A stretch of DNA of 64,000 nt, from contig NC_043007.1 of NCBI RefSeq assembly GCF_006345805.1, positions 66,588,001-66,652,000 of the forward strand. Direction: 5' to 3'. The notes beneath the pieces were generated by a model. That model was given only the letters and a program-made list of their open reading frames with translations. It was not told where the DNA came from and searched no databases. This document shows positions 401 to 57,989 of the stretch, in pieces (position 1 is the stretch's first letter; the number at the start of each line of letters is the position of its first letter). The stretch is from Octopus sinensis. Taxonomy: Eukaryota. The position numbers and the translations under genes were made by a program.

Positions 401-411
401 ATAATATATAT

Positions 412-810
412 ACTCTTTTACCTGTTTCAGTCATTTGACTGCGGCCATGCTGAAGCACTGCCTTTTAATCGAGCAACTCGACCCCAGGACTTATTCTTTT
501 GCAAGCCCAATTACTTATTCTATCGGTCTCTTTTGCCGAGCCGCTAAGTAACGGGGACATAAACACACCAGCATCGGTTGTCAAGCAATGCTAGGGGGAC
601 AAACACAGACACACAAACACACACACACATATATATATGTATACATATATACGACAGGCTTCTTTCAGTTTCCCTCTACCAAATCCACTCACAAGGCATT
701 GGTCGGCCCGGGGCTATAGCAGAAGACACTTGCCCAAGATGCCACGCAGTGGGACTGAACCCGGAACCATGTGGTGGTTAGCAAGCTACTTACCACACAG
801 CCACTCCTGC

Positions 811-812
<2 letters not shown>
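412..812 (-). mobile_element. tRNA-derived SINE family A (head, internal TA/CA microsatellite, tail ...ccagcatggccgcagtcaaatgactgaaac(aagtaaaag)n), near full length
   Basis: Reverse strand starts ggcgcaggagtggctgtgtgg (A box) ...ggttcagtccc (B-box-like). Near-identical copies at 4395-4812, 10945-11385 and 56788-57190. Confidence 0.9.
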
Positions 813-868
<56 letters not shown>

Positions 869-2582: not shown

Positions 2583-3065
2583 GTTTTAGAGATTACAATA
2601 GCGAAAACACCAATGTACTATATAATTTCTTCGTGAGCCATTTACAGGTCTTTACTAGCAATATTTACAATGCAGAGAAATATCTGTGTTGAATAACAAG
2701 TTTCAATTGATATAGACTATGTAACCAAAAAAAAAAAAAAAAAAAAACATTGAAAAATTAAGAAATGGCCATGTTTGATTTCAGAACGCTGGAGAATATT
2801 TCCTAAACACTGACTTTACATTAATCGTTTTAGAGATTACAATAGCGAAAACACCAATGTACTATATAATTTCTTCGTGAGCCATTTACAGGTCTTTACT
2901 AGCAATATTTACAATGCAGAGAAATATATGTGTTGAATAACAAGTTTCAATTGATATAGACTCTGTAACCAAAAAAAAAAAAAAAAACATTGAAAAATTA
3001 AGAAATGGCCATGTTTGATTTCAGAACGCTGGAAAATATTTCCTAAACACTGACTTTACATTAAT
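2583..3065 (+). repeat. Tandem duplication, 2 x ~240 bp
   Basis: Units start gttttagagattacaatagcg at 2583 and 2827. They differ by about 3 substitutions and poly-A length. Confidence 0.93.
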
Positions 3066-3974: not shown

Positions 3975-4155
3975 AGACGACCGCGTGTGTATCGTTGGAG
4001 ACATTTTCCCTCTGTCCTCCCTTCCTTGGATCTTTCCTTTTTCTATGTTTCTGATGAAGAGCTCCACTCGAAACTCTAAATCTTCCTTCTTTCCTTCTTT
4101 TCCAATAACTTGTTCTACGTCCTCGCGTTGTTTTTTTTTTTTCTCTTTGTGTAGC
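3975..4155 (+). mobile_element. Penelope-like pLTR fragment containing a hammerhead core
   Basis: CTGATGA-agagctccactc-GAAA at 4051-4073. Its tail acgtcctcgcgttgtt is shared with 34900. Confidence 0.6.
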
Positions 4156-4394: not shown

Positions 4395-4608
4395 TTTTTA
4401 CTCTTTACTCTTTTACTTGTTTCAGTCATTTGACTGCGGCCATGCTGGAGCACCGCCTTTAGTCGAGCAAATCGACCCCGGGACTTATTCTTTGTAAGCC
4501 CAGTACTTATTCTATCGGTCTCTTTTGCCGAACCGCTAGGTTACGGGGACGTAAACACACCAGCATCGGTTGTCAAGCAATGCTAGGGGGACAAACACAG
4601 ACACACAA

Positions 4609-4639
<31 letters not shown>

Positions 4640-4812
4640 CATATATACGACAGGCTTCTTTCAGTTTCCATCTACCAAATCCACTCACAAGGCATTGGTC
4701 GGCCCGGGGCTATAGCAGAAGACACTTGCCCAAGATGCCACGCAGTGGGACTGAACCCGCAACCATGTGGTTGGTTAGCAAGCTACTTACCAGACAGCCA
4801 CTCCTGCGCCTA
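4395..4812 (-). mobile_element. SINE family A, full length, young
   Basis: Near identical to 412-812 and 56788-57190. Confidence 0.92.
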
Positions 4813-5089
4813 TAATTTTTACATTTAGTTATGTTAGTAAATGCGTGGTAATCTTGAGAAAATTTGTTGTTTCGGGCAAAGAAATCAGCCACTAACACAC
4901 ACTTTGCAAATCCTTATGCTGAACAGTAAAAATTTACAAGCCTTCTTTTCATAAGTTCAACATGTTATTACTCTTTAGTCACTGTTATTCAAATTCCAGC
5001 AATCAGGCTTTGTTTCTTTGTTAAAAAAAACAGCTTCTTTTTCGTTTTTTCTTGACAGGAAAATGCAAATATATATAAAGAAGGGCTAA

Positions 5090-5767
5090 CATACATACTA
5101 CATACATACATACATACATACATACATTCATACATACATACATATATACATACATACATATATACATACATACATACATACATATATACTTGCATACATA
5201 CATACATACATACATACATTCATACATACATATTTTCATACATACATACTTACATTCATACATTCATACATACATACATACATACATACATACATACATG
5301 CATACATTCATACATACATGATATTTTCATACATACATACTTGCATTCATACATACATACATACATACATGCATACATACATACATACATACATACATAC
5401 ATACATACATACATACATACATACATACATACATACATACATACATTCATATATTCATACATACAGACAGACATTCAAACATACAAACATACATTACATA
5501 CATGCATTACGTTCATACATACATACATACATACATACATACATACATACATACATACATACATACTTACATTCATATATTCATACATACAGACAAACAT
5601 TCAAACATACAAACATACATTACATACATGCATTACGTTCATACATACATACATACATACATACATACATACATACATACATACATTCATATATTCATAC
5701 ATACAGACAGACATTCAAACATACAGACATACATTACATACATGCATTACGTTCATTCATACATACA

Positions 5768-5801
<34 letters not shown>

Positions 5802-5920
5802 CATACATACATACATACATACATACATACATACATACACACATACATACATACTTACATGCATACATACGCACGTACAGACAAATATTTACTCACATAC
5901 GTATATATATATACATACAT
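5090..5920. repeat. (TACA)n microsatellite with ~115-125 bp higher-order repeat
   Basis: The block cattcatatattcatacatacagac...catgcattacgttc recurs at about 5444, 5570 and 5684. Confidence 0.92.
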
Positions 5921-8704: not shown

Positions 8705-9085
8705 TCGACCCCAGTACGCAACTGGTACTTAATTTATCGACCCCGAAAGGATGAAATGCAAAATCAACCTCGGCGGAATTTGAACTCAGAACATAGCCAC
8801 GGGCGAAATACCGCTAAGCATTTCGTCCAGTGTGCTAACGATTCTTATTTCTTTACGACCCACGAGGGGCTAAACATAGAGGGGACAAAAAATGACAGAC
8901 AGACTGATTAAGTCGATTATATCGATCCTAGTGCGCAACTGGTTTTTAATTTATCGACCCCGAAAGGATGAAAGGCAAAGTCGACCTCGGCGGAATTTGA
9001 GCTCAGAACGTAACGGCAGACGAAATACAGCTACGCATTTCGCCCAACGTGCTAAGCTTTGCCCAACGTGCCAGCTCGCCGCCTC
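8705..9085 (-). mobile_element. SINE family B, two tandem copies
   Basis: Core ccccgaaaggatgaaaggcaaagtcgacctcggcggaatttga occurs twice. Confidence 0.9.
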
Positions 9086-9095
9086 AATAATAATG

Positions 9096-9164
<69 letters not shown>

Positions 9165-10900: not shown

Positions 10901-10944
10901 ACAATTCTATCAGCGTACTGAAAACTTTAAACTTTTTTTTACAT

Positions 10945-11119
10945 AAGGCGCAGGAGTGGCTGTGTGGTAAGTAGCTTGCTTACCAACCACATGGTTCCGG
11001 GTTCAGTCCCACTGCGTGGCACCTTGGGCAAGTGTCTTCTACTATAGCCTCAGGTCGACCAAAGCCTTGTGAGTGGATTTGGTAGACGGAAACTGAAAGA
11101 AGCCCGTCGTATATGTGTG

Positions 11120-11155
<36 letters not shown>

Positions 11156-11385
11156 TGTAAGTGTATATGTTTGAGTGTCTGCGTTTGCACCCCCCCCCAA
11201 CATCTCTTGACAACCAATGCTGGTGTGTTTACGTCCCCGTAAATTAGCGGTTCGGCAAAAGAGCCGGTAAAATAAGTACTAGGCTTCCAAAGAATAAGTC
11301 CTGGGGTCGAGTTGCTCGACTAAAGGCAGTGCTCCAGCATGGCCGCAGTCAAATGATTGAAACGAGTAAAAGAGTAAAAGAGAGA
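10945..11385 (+). mobile_element. SINE family A, full length
   Basis: ggcgcaggagtggctgtgtgg ... gagtaaaagagtaaaagag. Confidence 0.92.
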
Positions 11386-13189: not shown

Positions 13190-13815
13190 GTACATACATA
13201 CACACATACACACATACATACATACATACATACATACATACATACATACATACATACATACATACATACATACATACATACATGTATACATGCATACATG
13301 CATACAAACATACATACTTACATACATACATACATGCATGCATGCATACATATATACATACATACATTCATATATACATACATACATACATAATACATAC
13401 ATGCATACACACACTCATACATGCATACATACATACATACATACATATATACATGCATACATAATACATACATGCATACATACATACATGCATACATACA
13501 TGCATACATGCATACATGCATACATACATACATACATACATACATAATACATACATGCATACATACATGCATACATACATACATACATACATACATGCAT
13601 GCATACATACATACATAATACATACATGCATACATGCATAATACATACATGCATGCATGCATACATACATACATACATGCATAATACATACATGCATACA
13701 TGCATACATACATCCATACATGCATACATACATGCATACATGCATACATACATGCATACATACATGCATACATACATACGTACATACATGCATACATACA
13801 TACATATATACATAC
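13190..13815. repeat. (TACA/TGCA)n compound microsatellite
   Basis: Direct reading. Confidence 0.95.
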
Positions 13816-17727: not shown

Positions 17728-18622
17728 TATTGGGTTGTCCGGAAAGTCCGTGCCGATTTATAGTAACTTACCTTTCGACTTATTTTAGAACATAGGATTT
17801 GACTACACCTCCATTTAAAGCAGTTTAAGCTATCTTTTCGTGGAAGAAGGTTTATGTTCCTCTAACCTGTGTTAATTCTGTAGCCCTTTAAAATGGAAGA
17901 TAAGAAAGTTCTTTTTCGGAACTTGATGCTTTTCTTTTTCCGTAAAGGGAAAAATGCCTCACAAGCAACCAAAGAAATATGCGCAGTTTACGGTTGTGTC
18001 TCTTTATCCGAAAGAACTGTACGGAAGTGGTTCGCAAGGTTCCGAGCTGGAGATTGTAGCCTTATTGATAAAGAGCGATCAGGCAGACCATCCACTACAG
18101 ATATTGACCAAATCAAGTCATTAATTGAGAATAACCCACATTGCACAACCCGAGAATTGGCAGAAAGCCTCAACCTATCAAAATCCGTCGTTCGTGAGCA
18201 CCTGGTAAAGCTTGGGTACACAAATCGCTGCGATGCTTGGGTACCACATGAGTTGAGTGAGAAGAACCTTTTGGATCGCATTTCCATCTGTGATTCGCTT
18301 TATAAACGGAATGAAATGGATTATCTACCAAAATGTTCAGAGAAAGCGATCCTGGAGTAAGCGACATGAGCCACCCTTAGCCACCCCAAAAGCGGGTCTT
18401 CACCCTAAAAAGGTCTTGCTTTGTGTCTGGTGGGACTGGAAAGGAATTCTGTACTATGAGCTTCTCCCAAGTAACCAGACAATTAATTCTGAGAAATACT
18501 GCACACAACTGGACGAGTTAAAAGCAGCAATTCAAGAGAAACGTCCAGAATTGGCCAACAGGAAAGATGTTGTTTTCCAGCATGTTAATGCAAGAGCGCA
18601 CGTTTCTTCGGGAACCAGATAA
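17728..18622 (+). mobile_element. Mariner transposon, 3'-truncated, second family; transposase pseudogene 17893-18622
   Basis: Left end ta-ttgggttgtccggaaag. MEDKKVLFRNLMLFFFRKGKNA..RSGRP..WVPHEL, then LHPKKVLLCVWWDWKG..FQHVNARAH. The first catalytic D (TGDEKW) is lost by a frameshifting deletion near 18315. Nested in a decayed SINE A. Confidence 0.93.
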
Positions 18623-26489: not shown

Positions 26490-26690
26490 TAGAAGGGACA
26501 AACAAGGACAGACAAACGGATTAAGTCGATTACATCGACCCCAGTGCGTAACTGGTACTTAGTTTATCGACCCCGAAAGGATGAAAGGCAAAGTCGACCT
26601 CGGCGGAATTTGAACTCAGAACGTATCGGCAGACGAAATACGGGTAAGTATTTCGCCCGGTGTGCTAATGTTTCTGCCAGCTCGCCGCCT
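26490..26690 (-). mobile_element. SINE family B, young copy
   Basis: Near identical to 28650-28870 and 43370-43572. Confidence 0.9.
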
Positions 26691-27796
26691 TCTCTCTCTC
26701 AGAAGTACCGTCTTAAAACAAAATGGAAAGACATTGAATAATTCAGTTAAGAGTATAAAGCAATACCTTGAATAAAGACATGATGATCACGGACAAAGGT
26801 TCTTTAAACATAGATGTCTCTCGATCAGAGCCTATCTGGAGTAAGGCAATAAGAACCTATTTAAAATATCACTACACACTTCACTGTCTCAGTAATGGAA
26901 AAGCACTTTGCATAATGAAACGCCAGATATTCTTTCTACTGTATGCACAAAACCTGAAATCTTTTAGGGAAGGGATAGTAGATTTCGACCTTAGTTTTCA
27001 GTTGGTACTTGTTTAATCGACAAATTGGTACTTGTTTAATCGATGAAAGGCAAAGTTGACTTTGCAAAATTTGAACTCAGACTCTAAAGAGCTGGAAAAA
27101 TGCCACTAAGCATTTTACCCGGCATGCAAACGGTTTTGTCAGCTTGTCCTAGGTACACTATTCCTGAAAAAGCAGGACGGTTTCCGATCATAGATGTTCT
27201 TAGTTGGTGCTGGCCTGGAGCTCAATAAATAATGGTTTCTAATTTAGGCACAAGGCCAGCAATTTTGAAGTGTGGGAATTCGTCGATACCACTCATTTTT
27301 GGAACACTGGATCTTGAAGCAGATAAGCTATAAATAATAGCGTGTAAATATTGAGTTAATTGCCTTTGAATAGAAAAAGTCGAAAGCTTATCTGCTTCAA
27401 GACCCAATGTTCCAAGAAAGAATTATTTCATGTTCGCTTAAAGTTTATAAATTTTTATAGAGCCAGCGCAATATGAAATTACGTGTGCAACCCAGTAACA
27501 AGACAAAATGAGCTCCTGAAACCGATTTGAAATCAAACCCTTACATTCAACATTCAATACGTTTACCTCCTCTCCAATTTGCATCTTCTATTTTAGCTTG
27601 ACCATACAGCTGATATTTTAAGTGATCGAAGAATATGTGAATATGTTCGTATCTCTGACCACAAAGAAATATTATGATCCACCGAGAAGTGCTTATAACA
27701 AATCACTTTACCCGAATATAAAAAATTGAAAAATTATCTGAAACAGATATTTATCAGCGCCTCACATTGTGTATTAAACATAATAATCTTTAGTAA

Positions 27797-28649: not shown

Positions 28650-29035
28650 CAAGGCGGCGAGCTAGCAGAATCGTTAGCACGCCGGGCGAAATGCTTCGCG
28701 GTATTTCGTCTGCCGCTACGTTCTGATTTCAAATTCCGCCGAGGTCGACTTTGCCTTTCATCCTTTCGGGGTCGATTAAATAATTACCAGTTACGCACTG
28801 GGGTCGATGTAATCGACTTAATCCGTGTGTCTGATCTTGTTTGTCCCCTTGTGGGTAGTAAAGAAATAGGTATTTACCCCAGCTTTCTCTTGTTCAAATT
28901 CCGCCGAAGTTGACTTTGTCTTTAATCTTTTCGGGGTCAATAAAATAAGTACCACTTAAGTACGGTGGTCGGTGTAATCGTCTAGTTCCTCCGTTAAAAA
29001 TTCAGACCTTTTACCTATAGCAGAAAGTATTATTG
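28650..29035 (+). mobile_element. SINE family B (module A plus module B)
   Basis: aaggcggcgagctagcagaatcg...aagaaataggtatt. Confidence 0.88.
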
Positions 29036-32344: not shown

Positions 32345-32775
32345 GAACGGTGAGCTGGCAGAATCGTTAGCACGCCGGGCGAAATGCTTAGCGGTATTTC
32401 GTCTGCCGTTACGTTCTGAGTTCAAATTCCGCCGAGGTCGACTTTGCCTTTCACCTTTCGGGGTCGATTGAATAAGTACCAGTTACGCACTGAGGTCGAT
32501 ATAATTTACTTAATCTGTTTGTCTGTCTTGTCTGTCCCTTCTGTGTGTAGCCCCTTGTGGGTAGTAAAAAAATGAGAATCATTAGCAAGCCGGGTGAAAT
32601 GCTTAGCGGTTTTTCGTCTGTCACTACGTTCTGAGTTCAAATTCCGCCGAAGTCGACTTTGCCTTTCACCTTTCGGGGTCGATAAAATAAGTACCAGTTA
32701 CGCACTGAGTTCGATGTAATTGACGAGCCTCCTTCCTCCAAAAATTTTCATGGCTTCGTGCCTAGATAAGAAATA
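32345..32775 (+). mobile_element. Dimeric SINE family B inserted as one unit, 17 bp TSD
   Basis: TSD attattcttcag(a/t)ctaa at 32328-32344 and 32776-32792. Confidence 0.88.
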
Positions 32776-33815: not shown

Positions 33816-34689
33816 TACATAAGATTGGCCATTGAAAAGATGATTACGTTCCGAGTTCGAATCTCGCCGAGGTTAACTTAATCCTTCATCCTTTCGAGGC
33901 TGATAAAATAAAGCAGCAGTCAAATACCAGGGGCCGATGTAATCAACTAACCAGTTACTAAAATTTTTGACCGGGTACCAAAATTTCAAACAATTATTAT
34001 TATTGTAAGTGAAATCGACTGGCGACGACTCACACGACATACCGGAAGCTGTACCATACGCTCCAGCGTTCACCATGGAGCAAACAAGCATAATCAAAAA
34101 TAAATAAATCATATCAGAAAACAAGACAAAAAAATAAAGAAATAACGTAGCTAGTGACTGCAGTTTGATAAAACACAGGATATTAAATATAATGTATTGT
34201 CCTGTTGTTTTGTCAATGACGTAGAATTTATTGTAGTTAAGTTAGACCAAAGATTTGGTATCTCTGTGGCGCCACAGGTGGATGTATATGAATGTAGTAC
34301 ATCAATAGATGGTTGGTGGGAAAGGAGTGGGTAGATATGGATGAGTGGGTGGAACGCTACATTGGTGGATGTTTAGATGGATGAAAGAACGGATATATAT
34401 CTGTGTGTGTATGTGTGAATACGTATTTATATATATATATTTACACACACATATTAATTCATACGTGTGCGTGTGTGTGTGTTCATGTGTGTGTGAGCGC
34501 GTGTGTGTGTCTGGTTAAGAAGCTTGTTTTGCAAACACCTAGTTTCTAGTTCAGTCCTATTTCGCGGCACATTGAGCAAGTGTCTTCTGCTATAATCACG
34601 ATCGACCAACGCCTTGAGTGTGAACTTGGTAGAAGGAAACTGGATCGAGCCCGTCATATACGCACACACACATACATACAACATACAGT

Positions 34690-34948
34690 CGCCATGGTAG
34701 ATCGGTAGCCACTACACACATTTTTTTCTTTCCTTGTTTCTTTCTGTGTTCCTTTCTGTAGAAGAGCGTAGGCTCGAAACGTGAAAGACTTTTTCAATTC
34801 CTGAGCGTTATACTAATACATCTGTTTGTTTTCTACACCAGCCGTCTTCGTCTTTTGTTTTTTACGTGAACTCTCCCTAAATATATATATATACTTCTTC
34901 CACGTCCTCGCGTTGTTGTATTTTCTCTTTGTTCTTGTTTTTATTAAC

Positions 34949-34950
<2 letters not shown>
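34690..34950 (+). mobile_element. Penelope-like repeat with minimal hammerhead-like motif
   Basis: cttt-CTGTAGA-agagc-gtag-gctc-GAAA-cgtg-aaag at 34752-34787. Confidence 0.65.
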
Positions 34951-35730: not shown

Positions 35731-35834
35731 AACCCTGATGTCTTTTTTTGTTTTGTTTTGTTTTTTTTTATTGTAGAACACCTGAGCACTGTATACAACA
35801 ATTTCTTTCATATATACAATATATATATATATAT

Positions 35835-36250
35835 TCTTTTATTCTTTTATTTGTTTCAGTCATTTAACTGCGGCCATGCTGGAGCACCGCCTTTAGTCGA
35901 ACAAATCGACACCCAGTACTTATTCTTTGTAAGCCTAGTACTTATTCCATCGGTATCTTTTGACGAACCGCTACGTTGCGGGGACGTAAACACACCAACA
36001 TCGGTTATCAAGCGATGGTATGGGACAAACACAGATACATAAACATTTATACACATGCACACACACACACACACACACACATACACACACACAAGCACAT
36101 ACATATATATACAACGGGCTTCCATTCACAAGGCTTTGGTCGGCCCGAAGCTATAGTAGTAGAAACTCGCCCAAGATGCCAGACAGTGGGACTGAACACG
36201 AAACCATCTGATTGGCAAGCAAGCTACTTACCACACAGTCACTCCTGCTA
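35835..36250 (-). mobile_element. SINE family A
   Basis: Homology to 412-812. Confidence 0.88.
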
Positions 36251-36941: not shown

Positions 36942-37041
36942 NNNNNNNNNNNNNNNNNNNNNNNNNNNNNNNNNNNNNNNNNNNNNNNNNNNNNNNNNNN
37001 NNNNNNNNNNNNNNNNNNNNNNNNNNNNNNNNNNNNNNNNN
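36942..37041. other. Assembly gap (100 N)
   Basis: Run of exactly 100 N, so a gap of unknown size. Contiguity across it is not guaranteed. Confidence 0.99.
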
Positions 37042-42494: not shown

Positions 42495-43595
42495 TTCTTA
42501 CATGTTTCAGTCACTTGACTGCAGTCATGCTGGGGTACCACTTTGAAGAATTTTAGTAAAACGAATTGACGCCAGTACTTATCTAATCGAGATACTTCCT
42601 CTATCGGCCTCATTTACCGAAGCGCTAGTTACGGGATATAAACAAACCAACGCCGGTTGTCAAACGGTGGTGGAGACAAATACAAACACCAACACACACA
42701 TATACACACATCCATACATACACACACTGCGTGGCACCTTGGGCATGTGCCCAAGTGGATTTGGTAGAGTGAAACTGAAAAAAACCCTTTGTACATGTGT
42801 GTGTGTTACTGCATGTGTTAGTCCACCCCACCGCCACAACCGCTAAACAACTAGCGTTGGTATGTGTGCCTGCGTCTCCGTGACTTAGCGTTTCGGTATA
42901 AGGACCCGACTGAATAAGTATCAGGCTTAAAATTAAGTACTAGGTCGATTCATCCGAATAAAAATTCAAAGCGGACTTCCAGCATGGCTGCAGTCTAATG
43001 ACTAAAACAAACAAACAAACACAAATATAATACAAAGGGCTTCTTTCAGTTTCCGTCTACGAAATCTCACTCACAAGGCTTTGATCAGCCCGAGGCTCTA
43101 ATAGATGACACTTGGACAAGATGCCACGCAGTGAGACTGAACCCGGAACCATGTGGCTTTGAAGCAATATTCTTACCACACAGCCACACCTATTTCTTTA
43201 CTACCCACAAGGGGCTAAATACAGAAGGGACAAACAAGGACAGACAAACGGATTAAGTCGATTATATCGACCCCTAGTGCGTAACTGGTACTTATTTAAG
43301 TCGACCTCGGCGAAATTTGAACTCAGAACGTAGCGTCAGGCGAAATACCTATTTCTTTACTATCCACAAGGGGCTAAACACAGAGAGGACAGACAAACGG
43401 ATTAAATCGATTATATCGACCCCAGTGCGTAACTGGTACTTAATTTATCGACCCCGAAAGGATGAAAGGCAAAGTCGACCTCGGCGGAATTCGAACTCAG
43501 AACGTAACGGCAGACGAAATACGGCTACGCATTTCGCCCGGTGTGCTAACGTTTCTGCCAGCTCGCCGCCTTCTCACAGCCACACCTGCGCCTAT
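42495..43595. mobile_element. Nested SINE cluster: A(-) tail, A(+), and A(-) head carrying a SINE B insertion
   Basis: SINE B dimer 43192-43574 is flanked by the 13 bp TSD cacagccacacct (43179-43191 and 43575-43587). Confidence 0.85.
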
Positions 43596-45405: not shown

Positions 45406-45789
45406 GGAGCAGGTGTGTGAGAGAGTACGTTTGTTCCTGTATGTAGATGTACATACGGGTTTTTTTTTGTACGGCTATATAAGTGTGCGTTTATGTGTTT
45501 ATGAAAGAAAGACGGAGAACTCGAGTGAGAGAGAGACAGAGAGAGACAGAGAGACAGTGAGTGCATGTCTACAGGTGCTTTTCTGTGCGGGTTTGTGTGT
45601 GTGTGTGTATGTATGTGTGTGTGAGCATGTCTACAGTTACATACTTGCCTGTGTATGCATATCTACACACAAGCACACGCACACATGTATGTATGTATGT
45701 ATGTATGTATGTATGTATGTATGTATGTATGATGTGTATGTATGTATATACGTATATGTATATATATATACGTATATATACGTGTATAA

Positions 45790-45975
45790 TTCAAATTTAC
45801 AGAAACAAAAAATAGAAGACGAAGGCAGGTGTAGTGACAACAAGCAGGCGTGTTAGTTTCATGCTCGGGAAGAATGGAAAAGTCTTTTACGCTTCGAGCC
45901 TACGCGCTTCACCAGAAAGGATTAAGAGGGGGAAAACGAAGAAAGAATGGAAGAAAACACGGAAAGAGAAAAATA
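45790..45975 (-). mobile_element. Penelope-like repeat copy (hammerhead-like motif mutated)
   Basis: Reverse strand ctttctggtgaagcgcgtaggctcgaagcgtaaaagac. Confidence 0.6.
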
Positions 45976-46390
45976 TGAGTGGCTGTGTGGTAAATAGCTT
46001 GCTTACCAGCTACATGGCTCCGGGTTCAGTCCCACTGCGTGTTACCTCGGTCAAGTATCTTCTACTATAGCCTCGGACCGACGAGTCTTGTGAGTGGATT
46101 TGGTAGACGGAAACTGAAAGCCCGTCGTATATATGTATATACATGTGTGCGTAGTGTGTGCGCGCGCGAGCGTGTGTGTATGTGTGTCTGTGTTTGTCCC
46201 CCCAACATCGCTTGACAACCGATGGCGGTGTGTTTACGTGCCCGTAACTTAGCGGTTCTGCAAAAGAGACCGATAGAATAAGTACTAGGCTTATAAAGAA
46301 TTAGTCTAGGGGGTCGATTTGCTTGACAAAAGGCGGTGCTCCAGCATGGCCGCAGTCAAATGATTGAAACAAGTAAAAGTGTAAAAGAGA
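45975..46390 (+). mobile_element. SINE family A
   Basis: gagtggctgtgtgg ... aagtaaaagtgtaaaagag. Confidence 0.9.
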
Positions 46391-48834: not shown

Positions 48835-49660
48835 TTTTACTCTTTACTCTTTTACTCTTTTACTTGTTTCAGTCATTTGACTGCGGCCATGCTGGAGCAC
48901 CGCCTTTAGTCGAGCAAATCGACCCCAGGACAGTACTTATTCTATCAGTCTCTTTTGCCGAACCGCTAAGTTACGGGGACTTGAACGCACCAGCATCGGC
49001 TGTCAAGCGATGTTGGGAGGACAAACACAGACACACAAACACACACATATATATATACATATATATACACGACAGGCTTCTTTCAGTTTCCGTCTACCAA
49101 ATCCACTCACAAGACTTTGGTCGGCCTGAGGCTATAGAAGAAGACACTTGCCCAAAGTGCCATGCAGTGGGACTGAACCCGGAACCATGTGGTTGGTAAG
49201 CAAGCCACTCCTGTCACACATTATCCTTCATTCTATGATTACATTTCAGTATGTATTCTTTCATTCTTTTATTCTTTTACATGCTTCAGTCATCTGAATG
49301 AGGCCATGCTGGGGCACATCCTTTAGTCGAACAAATCGATCCTAGGATTTAATCTTTGTAAGCCTATTACTTATCCTATCGGTCTTTTTTTGCCGAACCG
49401 CTAAGTTACGGGGACGTAACCACACCAACATCGAATGTCAAGCGATGGTGGGGGGACAGACACAGACACAGATACAAATATATTCATATATATATATATA
49501 TATATATATACGACAGGCATCTTTCTGTTTCCGTCTACCAAATACACTCACAATGCTTTGGTTGACTCGAGGAGATAATGGAAGACACTTGCCCAAGGTG
49601 CCACACAGTGGGACTGAACCCCAAACCATGTGGCTGGTTAGCAAGCTACTTGCCACATAG
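48835..49660 (-). mobile_element. Two SINE family A copies
   Basis: 48835-49215 and 49260-49660. Confidence 0.88.
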
Positions 49661-50342: not shown

Positions 50343-51379
50343 TTTTATTCTTTTACTTGTTTCAGTCATTTAACTGTGACCATGCTGGAGCAACGACTTA
50401 AAGGTTTTAGACGAACAAATGGACCCCAGGACTTAGTCTTTGTAAGCCTACATTCAGACACAATCTTTTTTAACAAATGAGAGGAAAGAGTACTCAAAAC
50501 TTGTTGAGAGGATTTTTATTCGTAAGAATCCGGTCATTGACTCCGTCCGTTGTTACCCAGGGCTTCTCTTTTAATGGGAAACAATCACCTACGTTTACCT
50601 ACATCTGTGTCTATCTATGTCTTTATCTTTCTTACTGCTTAATTACCTCATCAATCAATCTAACAACATGTCGGTCGATCCTGTGTATTTATCTATCTGT
50701 TTCTCCGTTTACCCGTTCACCAAACTCTCTAGATAATTCCACATGTATCTATCGATCTATTGATTCAACCATTTGACTTATGCATTTTTATGCTTTGTTG
50801 CCAGTTTAAGTGAGACTACAACGCCAAATGAATAAAAAAAAAACTTGGCAAGTAACAACAGTCGTTAGAAATGGCGAAGCAATATAGAAACAATCCTCAC
50901 TTCTCTCCTTCTCACTCCTATTTCTTTCCTTCACTCACTCACTCACACTCTCACTCACTCACTCACTCACTCACCCACTCTCGAACTTAACAAACGTCTA
51001 TGTTGTCTCTTGACAAAACTGCACACATGATGGCAAAGGTAAAACCAAATTCTCCTTCCTGTTTCAGAGAAGTACCATGCATTATCAAATATTGATGGAT
51101 GACCACCAAATATATGACAATCTTTTACTACAGAGTTTAATCTTCAGAGCAAATTGCTTCTGGAATTTTATGCAACAAGACAGACCCAACAAAACCGAAC
51201 CGGTCTTACCTTCTTCCCGAAAATGTTAGAATCACTCTTTATTATTCTTTAATATACTCAAAATTCTCTTACTATGTTGCGGCCTGGGGAAATTGTAAAG
51301 TTCGCTTACTCAACAATGCCATTCATAAATTATGCAAGACTCTCAAAATAATTACTTTCGATTAATAATACATATATAT

Positions 51380-51689
<310 letters not shown>

Positions 51690-52864: not shown

Positions 52865-53076
52865 ACTCTTTTATTCTTTTATTCTTTTGCTTATTTCGGT
52901 CATTTGACTGCGGCCATGCTGGGGCACCGCCTTAAGGGGTTTTTAGTCGAACAAATCGACCCCAGGACTTGTATGGTTAGTATTTATTTTCGGTTTGCCG
53001 AAACGCTAAGTTACAGGATTGTAAATACACCAATATCGGTTGTCCAGAGATGATGGGATGTGGGACAAACACAGAT

Positions 53077-53147
<71 letters not shown>

Positions 53148-53310
53148 CGACTGGTCTCTGTCAGTTTCCGTCTACTAAATCCACTCACAAGGCTTTTGTC
53201 GGCCCGAGGCCATAGTAGAAGACACTTTCCCGAGGTGTCACGCAATAAGGCTGAACTCGGAACCATGTGATTGGGAAGCAAGCTTCTTAACAGACAGCCA
53301 CGCCTGCGTC
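52865..53310 (-). mobile_element. SINE family A
   Basis: Homology to 412-812. Confidence 0.87.
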
Positions 53311-53519
53311 TATATCTATATATATTTTAAAGATAAAATGGATAAAGTTCCTTCCCAAGTCATTTAGACTCATAGGACCGGTTTTCCGGTTTCCATGGAC
53401 GGTCAGTCACATGATTACTCATTTTTGCCAGATGAGTCGACTGGAATAACGTGAAATGAAGATCAGAACGACTAAGCCACGCACTTTCACTCTCTCTGTG
53501 TCCGTGTGTGTGTGTGTGT

Positions 53520-54490: not shown

Positions 54491-55140
54491 AACCCCGTTA
54501 CACTTCTTTTTTCCACCCACCCATCGCTAGATCAATCTAATTAATTGCAAAGTGAAACCAATGAGGCAAGATACTCTGGGGACAATTATGCAAGTTCCAA
54601 CACAACCGTGGTTTTCTCTCCGTATCAATGTCTGTCTACCTGCCTGTCTATTTGTCTATTTGTTCGTCTGTCTGAAAGTCATTCTGCCTATCTGTCTATC
54701 TGCTGTTTTTATCTCTGAGTTCAAATTCCGCCGATGTCGACTTTGCCTTTCATCCTTTCGGGGTCGATAAATTAAGTACCAGTTACGCACTGGGGTAGAT
54801 GTAATCTACTTAATCCGTTTGTCTGTCCTTGTATGTCCCCTCTGTGTTTAGCCCCTTGAGGGCAGTAAAGAAACATATAAAGAAAAATATAATTAAAAAT
54901 ATCAGACATACTTCATTTTAAGTACCAGATGAGCACTGGTATCAATGTAATTAACTTCCCTCGCACGACAAGATTGCTGGCCTTGTTACAAAATCAGAAA
55001 GAATTATCAAAGTTCACGGTATGATATTTAACAAGATGAAAGTACGTTTATATGAAGAATAAGAGATTTGTGTTTTGCACTTACCTGTTCGAACTTATCT
55101 CTCTACCTACCTACATTCATACACACATTCATATGCATGC

Positions 55141-56107: not shown

Positions 56108-56787
56108 GGTATATACATACGTACCTACCTACATACATACATATATATACATAGGTATATACATACGTACCTACCTACATACATACATATATATACATAT
56201 ACACACATATATACATACACATACATGCATGCATAAACATATAATACATACATGCATACATACACACATGCATGCATACATACACACACACACACACATA
56301 CATACATACATACATACATACATACATACATACACACATACATACATAGTGATTACGTCATCTTCACAGATAATTGCTGTCTCCTTTTGCTTCTTCGTTG
56401 TCAATGGCATTACCGACTTTCCGTCCATGACCTCTCAGATTGCTATGGAGTTGCACTGCAGACCTGCATGCCTGTGCGGTTCCAGTTGCTTAGATTTGCA
56501 CACGTCGCGACTCTTCGATCGCCACAGGACTTACAGGAGATGGAATGACAAACAAGGTCACCACAAAGAGACATCTGTATGTCATTAGATTACAGTGATA
56601 AACGCTTGTACAACACGAATGCCACTTTCTGATTTTCTGTGATTAGTGTCTATTAACAGGCCGAAGCGAGATAACCAGAAATCACGTGAAACGCACACAT
56701 ATACGTACATGCACGTACATACATACATACATACATACATACATACATACATACATACATACATACCTAGATTACAAATTTACATTT

Positions 56788-57190
56788 TAGGCGCAGGAGT
56801 GGCTGTGTGGTAAGTAGCTTGCTAACCAACCACATGGTTCTGGGTTCAGTCCCACTGCGTGGCATCTTGGGCAAGTGTCTTCTGCTATATCCCCGGGCCG
56901 ATCAATGCCCTTTGAGTGGATTTGATAGACGGAAACTGAAAGAAGCCTGTCGTATATATGTATATATATATATAAGTGTGTGTGTCTGTGTTTGTTCCCC
57001 TAGCATTGCTTGACAACCGATGCTGGTGTCTTTACGTCCCCGTCACTTAGCGGTTCGGCAAAAGAGACCGATTGAATAAGTACTGGGCTTACAAAGAATA
57101 AGTCCCGGGGTCGATTTGCTCGACTAAAGGCGGTGCTCCAGCATGGCCGCAGTCAAATGACTGAAACAAGTAAAAGAGTAAAAGAGTATA
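56788..57190 (+). mobile_element. SINE family A, full length, young
   Basis: Near-exact reverse complement of 4395-4812. Confidence 0.92.
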
Positions 57191-57574
57191 CCAATAATGA
57201 TTTGAGCACTTGCCTTTGTAAGTAAATGGCTAACCGTCAGTCTTGATAAGTTTGGATTTTTGGAAAAAAGAAATTAACCAACTGACTCGCACGTTACAAA
57301 TACAATCTAGATGTGGAACAGTAAAATTATGCAAGACCTTTCTCAGGTTAAAAATGTGACATTGTTTTCGAAATCTACGGTTCAATGGTGGAGCTTTGTA
57401 TCTTTGTTAGAAAGCAGCTCCTTCTCCAGAGAATGAATTTAAATTATTAAAAACAGAAGACAAACATATACATACATAAATGCATGTATGTATACATACA
57501 TACGAACCTGCATACATTCATGCATACATACCTACATTATACTTACATACATACACACACATACATATATACAT

Positions 57575-57760
57575 GATAGATCGTTAGCCACTACACACAT
57601 TTTTTTCTCTCCTTGTTTCTTTCTGTGTTCCTTTCTGTGGAAAAGCGTAGGCTCGAAACGTAAAAGAGTTTTTCAATTCCCGAGCGTTATACTAATACAT
57701 CTGTTTGTTTTCTACACAACCTGTCTTCGTCTTTTGTTTTTTTTTTTCGTGAATTATCCC
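57575..57760 (+). mobile_element. Penelope-like repeat with hammerhead-like motif
   Basis: cttt-CTGTGGA-aaagc-gtag-gctc-GAAA-cgta-aaag at 57631-57666. Confidence 0.63.
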
Positions 57761-57989
57761 TACATACATACATACATACATACATACATACATACATACA
57801 TACATACATACATACGGAGTACTGGTGGAATGACCCTGTGAAAACCTCAGTAAGCTGTACACCTAATAGACCTGACATAGTAATTTAAGATGGAAGGTAC
57901 AGTTGTGTAAATCAGCTCCGCAGTGGACATTAACATAAAGCTAAAGATGAGGGGAAAAGAAAATACCTACGCTGAACTATTAAAGAATC

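What the first reader, a model, noticed from the sequence alone, without database searches (positions are those of the whole stretch)
34690..34950. Dispersed ~200 bp non-coding family carrying a variant minimal hammerhead ribozyme (5 copies in 64 kb)
Seen: copies at about 180(-), 34690(+), 45790(-), 51380(-) and 57575(+) share cttt-CTG(T/G)NGA-aGAGC-gtag-GCTC-GAAA-cgtN-aaag. This gives stem I cttt/aaag, stem II GAGC/GCTC with a tetraloop, and a tiny palindromic ACGT stem III. Known: this is the layout of minimal type I hammerheads in Penelope-like element pLTRs and retrozymes, which are thought to cleave as dimers. Unusual: three copies have U (CUGUAGA, CUGUGGA, CUGUUCA) and one has G at the normally invariant A6, while one has UUGAGGA. 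No RT or GIY-YIG ORF is attached. Inference: a high-copy non-autonomous PLE/retrozyme-like family with a non-canonical core, sitting in TA/TACA microsatellites.
Basis: partly seen in the sequence, partly recalled or inferred. Interest (0 to 1): 0.72.

Follow-up and report, generated by a model that had tools for sequence, protein, structure and literature searches.

The report
Penelope transposon hammerhead with fixed U6
These short repeats are end-pieces of a Penelope-type jumping gene whose whole lineage carries the small hammerhead RNA motif with U in place of a normally fixed core A, while the rest of the motif is kept almost unchanged, so it likely still cuts RNA slowly and only with help, which has not been tested.

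Summary
The five copies are real. They are not a separate non-coding family: they are short ends of an autonomous Neptune-type Penelope-like element (PLE). Longer copies run into RT plus GIY-YIG frames, and 5 of 20 long-ORF loci show pLTR-ORF-pLTR with the motif in both repeats. U6 is the family state, not decay: 13,499 exact genomic motifs have U6, 143 A6, 341 C/G. It is derived: the sister PLE clade (7 of 7) and metagenome relatives (15 of 15) have A6. Across three U6 lineages only N7 and H17 differ among 36 ribozyme columns, against 65 of 155 flank columns: the hammerhead pattern of tolerance. Stem I covaries with the sister clade. Many copies start about 65-90 nt upstream of the motif and span the cut site, so uncut RNA is likely the usual template. 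Cleavage is unshown; a cut-site footprint test was inconclusive. I found no natural A6U hammerhead in print, but the key paper was unavailable. This scan already noted this clade in this genome and U6 cores in other genomes.

The parts
34686..34877 (+). Short pLTR end-piece (about 190 nt) of a U6-clade Neptune-type PLE, 'anchor' lineage
   Evidence: 14 of 28 longer copies of this lineage run into RT/EN
34686..34696 (+). Conserved block (CAGTCGCCATG) where many short copies begin; inferred transcription start of the pLTR
   Evidence: 33 of 74 copies start 60-99 nt upstream of G8, 3 in the next 60 nt; one search shows the block kept in three lineages. Start site inferred, not mapped
34752..34755 (+). 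Hammerhead stem I, 5' strand (CUUU)
34756..34763 (+). Core C3-U4-G5-U6-N7-G8-A9 plus the extra A before stem II; U6 at 34759 replaces the canonical A6
   Evidence: the extra nucleotide between 9 and 10.1 is a described min-HHR trait (PMC4209133)
34764..34775 (+). Stem II (GAGC/GCUC) with GUAG loop
34776..34783 (+). G12-A13-A14, palindromic ACGU helix III, and position 17 (G in this copy; A or U in about 98% of the family). Predicted cut after 34783
34784..34787 (+). Hammerhead stem I, 3' strand (AAAG)
34878..34893 (+). (TA)n tract at the 3' end: target site and inferred internal priming point
   Evidence: in 5 full elements the 5' pLTR continues TTATATATT into the element body, while 3' ends pass into (TA)n at the same place
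34890..34950 (+). 3' tail fragment of the A6-type sister PLE family, a separate insertion, without its ribozyme
   Evidence: 87% identity over 82 nt to L190
170..341 (-). Decayed copy, older U6 lineage (core CUGUUCA)
45785..45970 (-). Decayed copy, older U6 lineage (core CUGGUGA)
51368..51559 (-). Copy of the N7=G, U17 subfamily; C3 lost, A at position 6 in this copy
57572..57769 (+). Copy of the anchor lineage (core CUGUGGA, A10.1)

Best explanation
The repeats are short terminal-repeat (pLTR) pieces of an autonomous Neptune-type Penelope-like retrotransposon clade whose minimal hammerhead has U fixed at core position 6, and this motif likely still works as a slow, dimer- or protein-assisted self-cleaving RNA. 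Shown: linkage to RT plus GIY-YIG frames, motif in both pLTRs, U6 fixed and derived, the rest of the motif conserved. Inferred: transcription starts in the pLTR about 70-85 nt upstream of the motif; the element's endonuclease nicks (TA)n; RT primes internally at a UA tract about 110 nt downstream of the cut site and often runs off the RNA's 5' end, giving the roughly 200-nt stubs; these span the cut site, so the template was mostly uncut. U6 would lower the cleavage rate (loss of A6 hydrogen bonds), leaving more uncut template while keeping occasional cutting when two motifs pair through ACGU or the element's protein folds the RNA.
For: Linkage: (RVT_1 above cut-off; GIY-YIG weak, below cut-off, E 0.001-0.005; CX4CxxC linker and two cysteines between the GIY/YIG equivalents read). 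U6 in 20 of 20 3' motifs of loci picked by the endonuclease, and in 4 of 5 5' motifs (one C6). Genome counts U 13,499, A 143, C/G 341, reversed controls 0. Derived state: DNA tree splits U6 and A6 clades 100/100; protein tree U6 100/99, A6 sister 100/99, nested among A6-bearing relatives; 15 of 15 motifs in 79 metagenome PLE loci have A6 with a scan open at position 6. Constraint: 2 of 36 motif columns differ among three lineage majorities (N7 and H17) against 65 of 155 flank columns, Fisher p 1e-5; position 17 is C or G in only 214 of up to 13,499. Stem I closing pair C-G versus G-C in the sister clade. No variant of 2% or more at position 6 in contigs of four runs under four organism labels, while N7 and H17 vary. 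A natural A6C hammerhead keeps low but detectable activity (PMC3088659, section 8); a PLE hammerhead cleaved only with the element's protein and uncut RNA was the main template (PMC11167929, passages).
Against: No cleavage data. In a full mutational scan of another hammerhead, single and double changes in the CUGA turn gave low activity with no rescue except the C3-G8 swap (PMC9901934, passages). Within the U6 clade stems and loop II are invariant, so there is no within-clade covariation; the one stem I change is a single event between two clades and stem II shows none. Other pLTR blocks are conserved too, so sequence-level constraint is possible. The cut-site footprint is not distinguishable from an A-run bias: 6 of 20 junctions just after the cut against 4 of 20 in a control A run. 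Stubs spanning the cut site fit a dead ribozyme equally well. Hammerhead mutants did not affect insertion in vitro in the anole PLE. Rfam gave no match to the motif even at E 10.
Confidence: 0.55

Rival explanations
1. The U6 motif no longer cleaves; it is kept as a folded RNA signal (binding or priming helper for the element's protein, or translation control), with the hammerhead fold retained.
For: CUGA-turn mutants have low activity; stem II and loop II are frozen in sequence, unlike the variable min-HHRs described; many copies come from uncut RNA; cleavage was dispensable for insertion in vitro; no clear cut-site footprint.
Against: The only positions that changed are N7 and H17, and H17 avoids G, which is what catalysis would tolerate (the NUH rule is recalled knowledge); G8, G12, A13, A14 and the ACGU palindrome are unchanged over 9-16% endonuclease DNA divergence and 21-28% pLTR divergence.
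Confidence: 0.3
2. U6 is fully compensated in this context (by the GUAG loop, the extra A or a distal contact) and the ribozyme cleaves as fast as its A6 sister.
For: U6 co-occurs with a 4-nt GUAG loop, A6 sisters have 3-nt loops; the clade is the largest min-HHR class counted here (20,764 versus 13,574 pattern hits, controls 170 and 147).
Against: No compensating double mutant for this turn was seen in another hammerhead; co-occurrence rests on one evolutionary event; folding gave no support.
Confidence: 0.08
3. The motif is conserved at DNA level (internal promoter or endonuclease recognition) and the RNA fold is a relic.
For: It lies just downstream of the inferred start site; neighbouring blocks are conserved as well.
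Against: Variation confined to N7 and H17 and the compensatory stem I pair follow RNA structure.
Confidence: 0.05
4. One reading: a separate non-autonomous, retrozyme-like 200-bp family.
For: Most copies are short: only 4 of 30 U6 pattern loci have endonuclease sequence upstream within 1.5 kb, and none of the 30 best matches to the anchor do on the same strand; many share a 5' start.
Against: A continuum of 5' lengths up to full elements; same subfamily joined to RT/EN; no tandem units seen; the shared start is explained by the RNA's 5' end.
Confidence: 0.02

Closest known systems
Minimal type I hammerheads (min-HHR) in pLTRs of metazoan PLEs (Cervera and De la Pena 2014, PMC4209133; read main text parts 1-2 of 4 and supplement parts 1-2 of 3)
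   Same: Short stem I, extra nucleotide between 9 and 10.1, G10.1-C11.1, palindromic helix III, U-rich 5' flank, location in both pLTRs, mostly solo copies from truncated elements.
   Different: All 56 families in its Fig. S3 have A6 (its descriptor required it); the described core variant is U3-A8. Here U6 is fixed, and stems and loop II are invariant rather than highly variable. No cephalopod is in that table.
Neptune clade of endonuclease-positive PLEs (Craig et al. 2021, PMC8557442; read introduction and passages)
   Same: Single ORF with DKG motif, RT, cysteine linker, C-terminal GIY-YIG with two inner cysteines, partial-tandem pLTRs, microsatellite target. Relative L385 carries a motif matching, but for one base, the Acropora digitifera entry listed as Neptune and falls in the sister group, 99/99.
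   Different: Non-canonical core; no reference Neptune or Nematis proteins were in my tree, so Nematis is not formally excluded.
PAc Poseidon element of Anolis (Frangieh et al. 2024, PMC11167929; read part 1 of 4 and passages)
   Same: Internal start of reverse transcription, AT-rich target, hammerhead in pLTR, uncut RNA as main template.
   Different: PAc has a canonical A6 core overlapping the ORF start; here the motif is followed by about 110 nt and a UA tract that matches the target.
Natural A6C hammerhead of phage Bcep176 (Perreault et al. 2011, PMC3088659; read section 8 and passages)
   Same: Natural substitution at position 6 with low but detectable activity (kobs under 0.1 per min).
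   Different: A single phage example with C, not U; the text has no 'A6U'. Here the change is fixed in over 13,000 exact copies.
Animal non-LTR retrozymes (bioRxiv 10.64898/2026.07.22.740005, part 1 of 5 read; PMC7229834 search listing only)
   Same: Type I hammerhead, PLE-related.
   Different: Retrozymes are tandem non-coding units; these are dispersed truncated ends of coding elements.

Membership tests
Penelope-like element, C-terminal endonuclease type | One ORF with PLE-type RT and C-terminal GIY-YIG | tested here: met
   12 of 20 loci have DKG, YIDD and endonuclease motifs in one frame; RVT_1 above cut-off, GIY-YIG below cut-off (E 0.001-0.005); homologues carry PF00078 and often PF01541
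Penelope-like element, C-terminal endonuclease type | Direct pLTRs from partial tandem insertion, each with a hammerhead motif | tested here: met
   5 of 20 loci; repeats 91-99% identical over 621-1386 nt
Neptune clade | CX2-5CxxC linker between RT and endonuclease; microsatellite target | tested here: met
   CX4CxxC; (TA)n at the ends; the linker is shared with Nematis
Neptune clade | Phylogenetic placement against reference Neptune and Nematis RTs | tested here: inconclusive
   One search has no named references; only indirect support through L385
Minimal type I hammerhead (min-HHR) | Stem I, stem II with G10.1-C11.1, extra nucleotide after A9, palindromic helix III, U16.1-H17 | tested here: met
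   94% of cells paired; H17 is A or U in about 98%
Minimal type I hammerhead (min-HHR) | Core CUGANGA with A6 | tested here: not met
   U6 in 96.5% of 13,983 exact motifs, A6 in 1.0%
Minimal type I hammerhead (min-HHR) | Self-cleavage after H17, as a dimer or with protein | not testable with these tools
   No raw RNA reads served; genomic footprint inconclusive
Non-LTR retrozyme | Non-coding units in tandem, each with a hammerhead | tested here: not met
   Copies are dispersed ends of coding elements; I did not scan the whole genome for tandem arrays

The most novel reading that the evidence does not exclude
A natural, lineage-fixed A6U hammerhead that is catalytically active in its retroelement context, tuned down or rescued by the element's own protein, and reached more than once in animal PLEs (earlier scan notes report U6 cores in other genomes). 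It would widen the hammerhead core consensus, reveal tens of thousands of motifs per genome missed by CUGA-based searches, and give a natural A6/U6 sister pair for asking whether PLEs need to cut their RNA.
Probability: 0.35. Interest if true: 0.65.

Novelty: new variant of a known kind. Interest (0 to 1): 0.45.

Why it matters
What the hammerhead does for Penelope-like elements is an open question: it is nearly universal in them, yet weak in vitro and dispensable for insertion in the one reconstituted system. This genome holds a very successful, recently active clade (copies 0.3% from their majority in the endonuclease) that changed a core base expected to cripple cleavage but kept everything else, next to a sister clade with the normal core. 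Comparing the two is a direct test: activity would extend the catalytic consensus, inactivity would show the fold is kept for another job. The element class and motif type are known, and the scan has noted this variant before, which limits surprise.

Tried and rejected
Rfam scans: only microsatellite-driven miRNA hits among the 150 of 315 rows listed for the window and no match to the motif. Folding: stems I and II form but z-scores are weak (0.7 to -1.6); U6 can pair with A15.1 into a rod, but natural A6 copies and sister motifs collapse into other rods and no intermolecular ACGU helix was favoured in any set, so the idea of U6 as a folding lock is unsupported. Cut-site footprint: 273 rows, 100 listed, 20 independent junctions after merging overlapping rows, one duplicated pair and one inverted pair; 6 just after the cut, 4 in a control A run (p 0.75): inconclusive. 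Expression: no RNA holder listed; runs are contigs only guessed to be RNA, so nothing is concluded. A hidden A6 sublineage: the 30 A6 loci scatter over all subfamilies; A6 looks somewhat more common in the N7=G subfamily, and the A6 majority of that cluster is a selection artefact; a small revertant lineage is not excluded. The first core-versus-flank test used wrong columns and was redone. One locus (L285) with a sister-type motif 1264 nt behind a U6-clade endonuclease was treated as a separate insertion and left out of the 15. Whether U6 here and in other animals has one origin could not be tested: no such elements with DNA context were in hand. Lunse et al. 2017 could not be read.

Full report
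Observation. The anchor copy spans 34686-34877. Each of the five copies has at least one damaging change, including G17 in the anchor.

Family size and consensus. The window lies in G000, a 2.72-Gb animal genome; earlier scan notes call it octopus-like, which I did not test. Exact 26-nt patterns differing only at position 6 give U 13,499, A 143, C or G 341, with reversed controls at 0, so U6 is 96.5% and A6 is at the level of point decay. With stem II left free, U6 motifs number 20,764 and A6 motifs 13,574 (controls 170 and 147); the listed A6 hits belong almost wholly to other families. A systematic 600-kb sample gave 8 hits to a profile that excludes the core, about 36,000 copies per genome with a wide range.

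What the repeats belong to. Four of 30 U6 loci have GIY-YIG coding sequence upstream on the same strand. A search with that domain scored 150 of 16,322 candidates at 94-100% identity. Of the 20 loci fetched for long open frames, 12 have DKG, YIDD and endonuclease motifs in one frame, all 20 have a U6 motif in the 3' repeat, and 5 also have an upstream repeat with the motif (4 U6, 1 C6). The two repeats are 91-99% identical. Pfam gives RVT_1 above its cut-off and GIY-YIG below it. The cysteine linker and (TA)n ends fit the Neptune clade as described in PMC8557442. The anchor's own subfamily is older: none of its 30 best matches has a same-strand ORF nearby, but 14 of 28 longer copies picked by their upstream UTR run into RT/EN 70-88% identical to the young protein. 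The non-autonomous reading therefore fails.

U6 is derived and retained. Copies picked by endonuclease sequence, not by the motif, gave for an older lineage 15 motifs in 29 loci (13 U, 2 C, 0 A; one further sister-type motif set aside) and for the sister clade 7 motifs in 29 loci, all A6. A DNA tree separates the clades 100/100 (bootstrap not fully settled); a protein tree nests both among relatives whose motifs have A6. In 79 metagenome PLE loci, 15 have a minimal hammerhead and all 15 have A6 under a scan open at position 6 (antisense 2 hits, shuffles 0). Three U6 lineages differ by 9-16% in endonuclease DNA and 21-28% in the 3' pLTR, yet only N7 and H17 differ among 36 motif columns, against 65 of 155 flank columns (p 1e-5). 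Position 17 is C or G in 214 of at most 13,499. Contigs from four runs under four organism labels show variation at N7 and H17 and none at 2% or more at position 6; in one, the core is deeply covered while the flanks no longer match. Against the sister clade the stem I outer pair changes C-G to G-C; stem II does not covary. This is one event between two clades and is modest evidence.

Why the copies are about 200 nt. In full elements the 5' pLTR continues through a short UA tract into the body, and every 3' end passes into genomic (TA)n at that place; priming there is inferred, by analogy with the internal initiation shown for the anole element (PMC11167929). Of 74 pattern-selected copies, 33 begin 60-99 nt upstream of G8, around a conserved TCGCCATG block, and 3 in the next 60 nt. 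The simplest reading is run-off at the RNA's 5' end; the block resembles an initiator consensus that I recall, not one I tested. Such stubs span the cut site, so their template was uncut or rejoined.

Does it cleave? Not shown. For: the tolerance pattern above; low but real activity of a natural A6C variant (PMC3088659); protein-assisted cleavage of another PLE hammerhead. Against: changes in the CUGA turn were low-activity and unrescued in a pairwise scan (PMC9901934); cleavage was not needed for insertion in vitro; 5' junctions just after the cut (6 of 20) did not exceed a control A run (4 of 20); folding did not separate U6 from A6. I put slow assisted cleavage at 0.55, a dead but conserved RNA signal at 0.3, full compensation at 0.08, DNA-level constraint at 0.05.

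Novelty. Minimal hammerheads in PLE ends are well described (PMC4209133); all 56 families tabulated there have A6, though the search required it. Ten full-text searches, among them 'hammerhead ribozyme' with 'A6U', 'CUGU', 'CUGUNGA' and 'octopus', returned no report of a natural A6U core; the one 'A6U' hit is a twister paper, seen as a listing only. Lunse et al. 2017, with about 150,000 PLE-linked variants by my recall, was not held and is the paper most likely to contain it. Earlier, unreviewed notes of this scan describe the same clade in this genome and U6 cores in other genomes; I saw them after and they agree with my reading but are not independent evidence. Verdict: a real new variant of a known kind, interest 0.45.

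Noticed in passing
window 34890-34950 (+), 3979-4152 (+), 13370-13411 (-): Pieces of the A6-type sister PLE family; the copy near 4051-4077 has a decayed canonical-core motif.
   Followed up: partly
window 34694-34708 (+); L107:7265-7279: Just behind the inferred start, three U6 lineages keep a four-codon frame M-(L/I)-(I/D)-R-stop with different Arg and stop codons; it is not kept in the A6 sister (read). A possible conserved upstream ORF.
   Followed up: no
window 34720-34761 (+): A long pyrimidine tract precedes the motif and in the anchor lineage ends in UAG at U6-A7-G8, like a 3' splice site; other lineages lack this AG. An intron end next to helix I is described for Drosophila Penelope.
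   Followed up: no
window 34800-34807 (+): A CCYGAGCG block about 20 nt after the cut site is kept in U6 and A6 clades and can pair with the 3' strand of stem II in folds: a possible alternative structure.
   Followed up: partly
L187-L216 (G000:C1): At least three other min-HHR families with A6 in this genome, one with a longer stem II and different stem I.
   Followed up: partly
window 411-820, 4399-4816, 10938-11382, 34508-34660, 35830-36250, 45977-46390, 48845-49660, 52870-53330, 56780-57190 and others: A 400-bp dispersed SINE-like family with more than ten copies; a second family near 8705-9100, 26490-26700, 28650-29000, 32350-32750, 43190-43575, 54714-54873.
   Followed up: no
window 17884-18360 (+): Mariner/Mos1-type transposase N-terminal fragment (PF17906, E 3.5e-19).
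   Followed up: no
window 5750-5860 (+): Weak sorting nexin C-terminal match (PF08628, E 1.3e-5) in a low-complexity frame; may be a short exon or an artefact.
   Followed up: no
window 2583-3065; 36942-37041: A 97% identical tandem duplication of about 243 bp and a 100-N assembly gap.
   Followed up: no
L024, L045, G000:C5:18897539-18897855: Head-to-head inverted pairs of short copies, the inverted pLTR layout known for PLEs.
   Followed up: no
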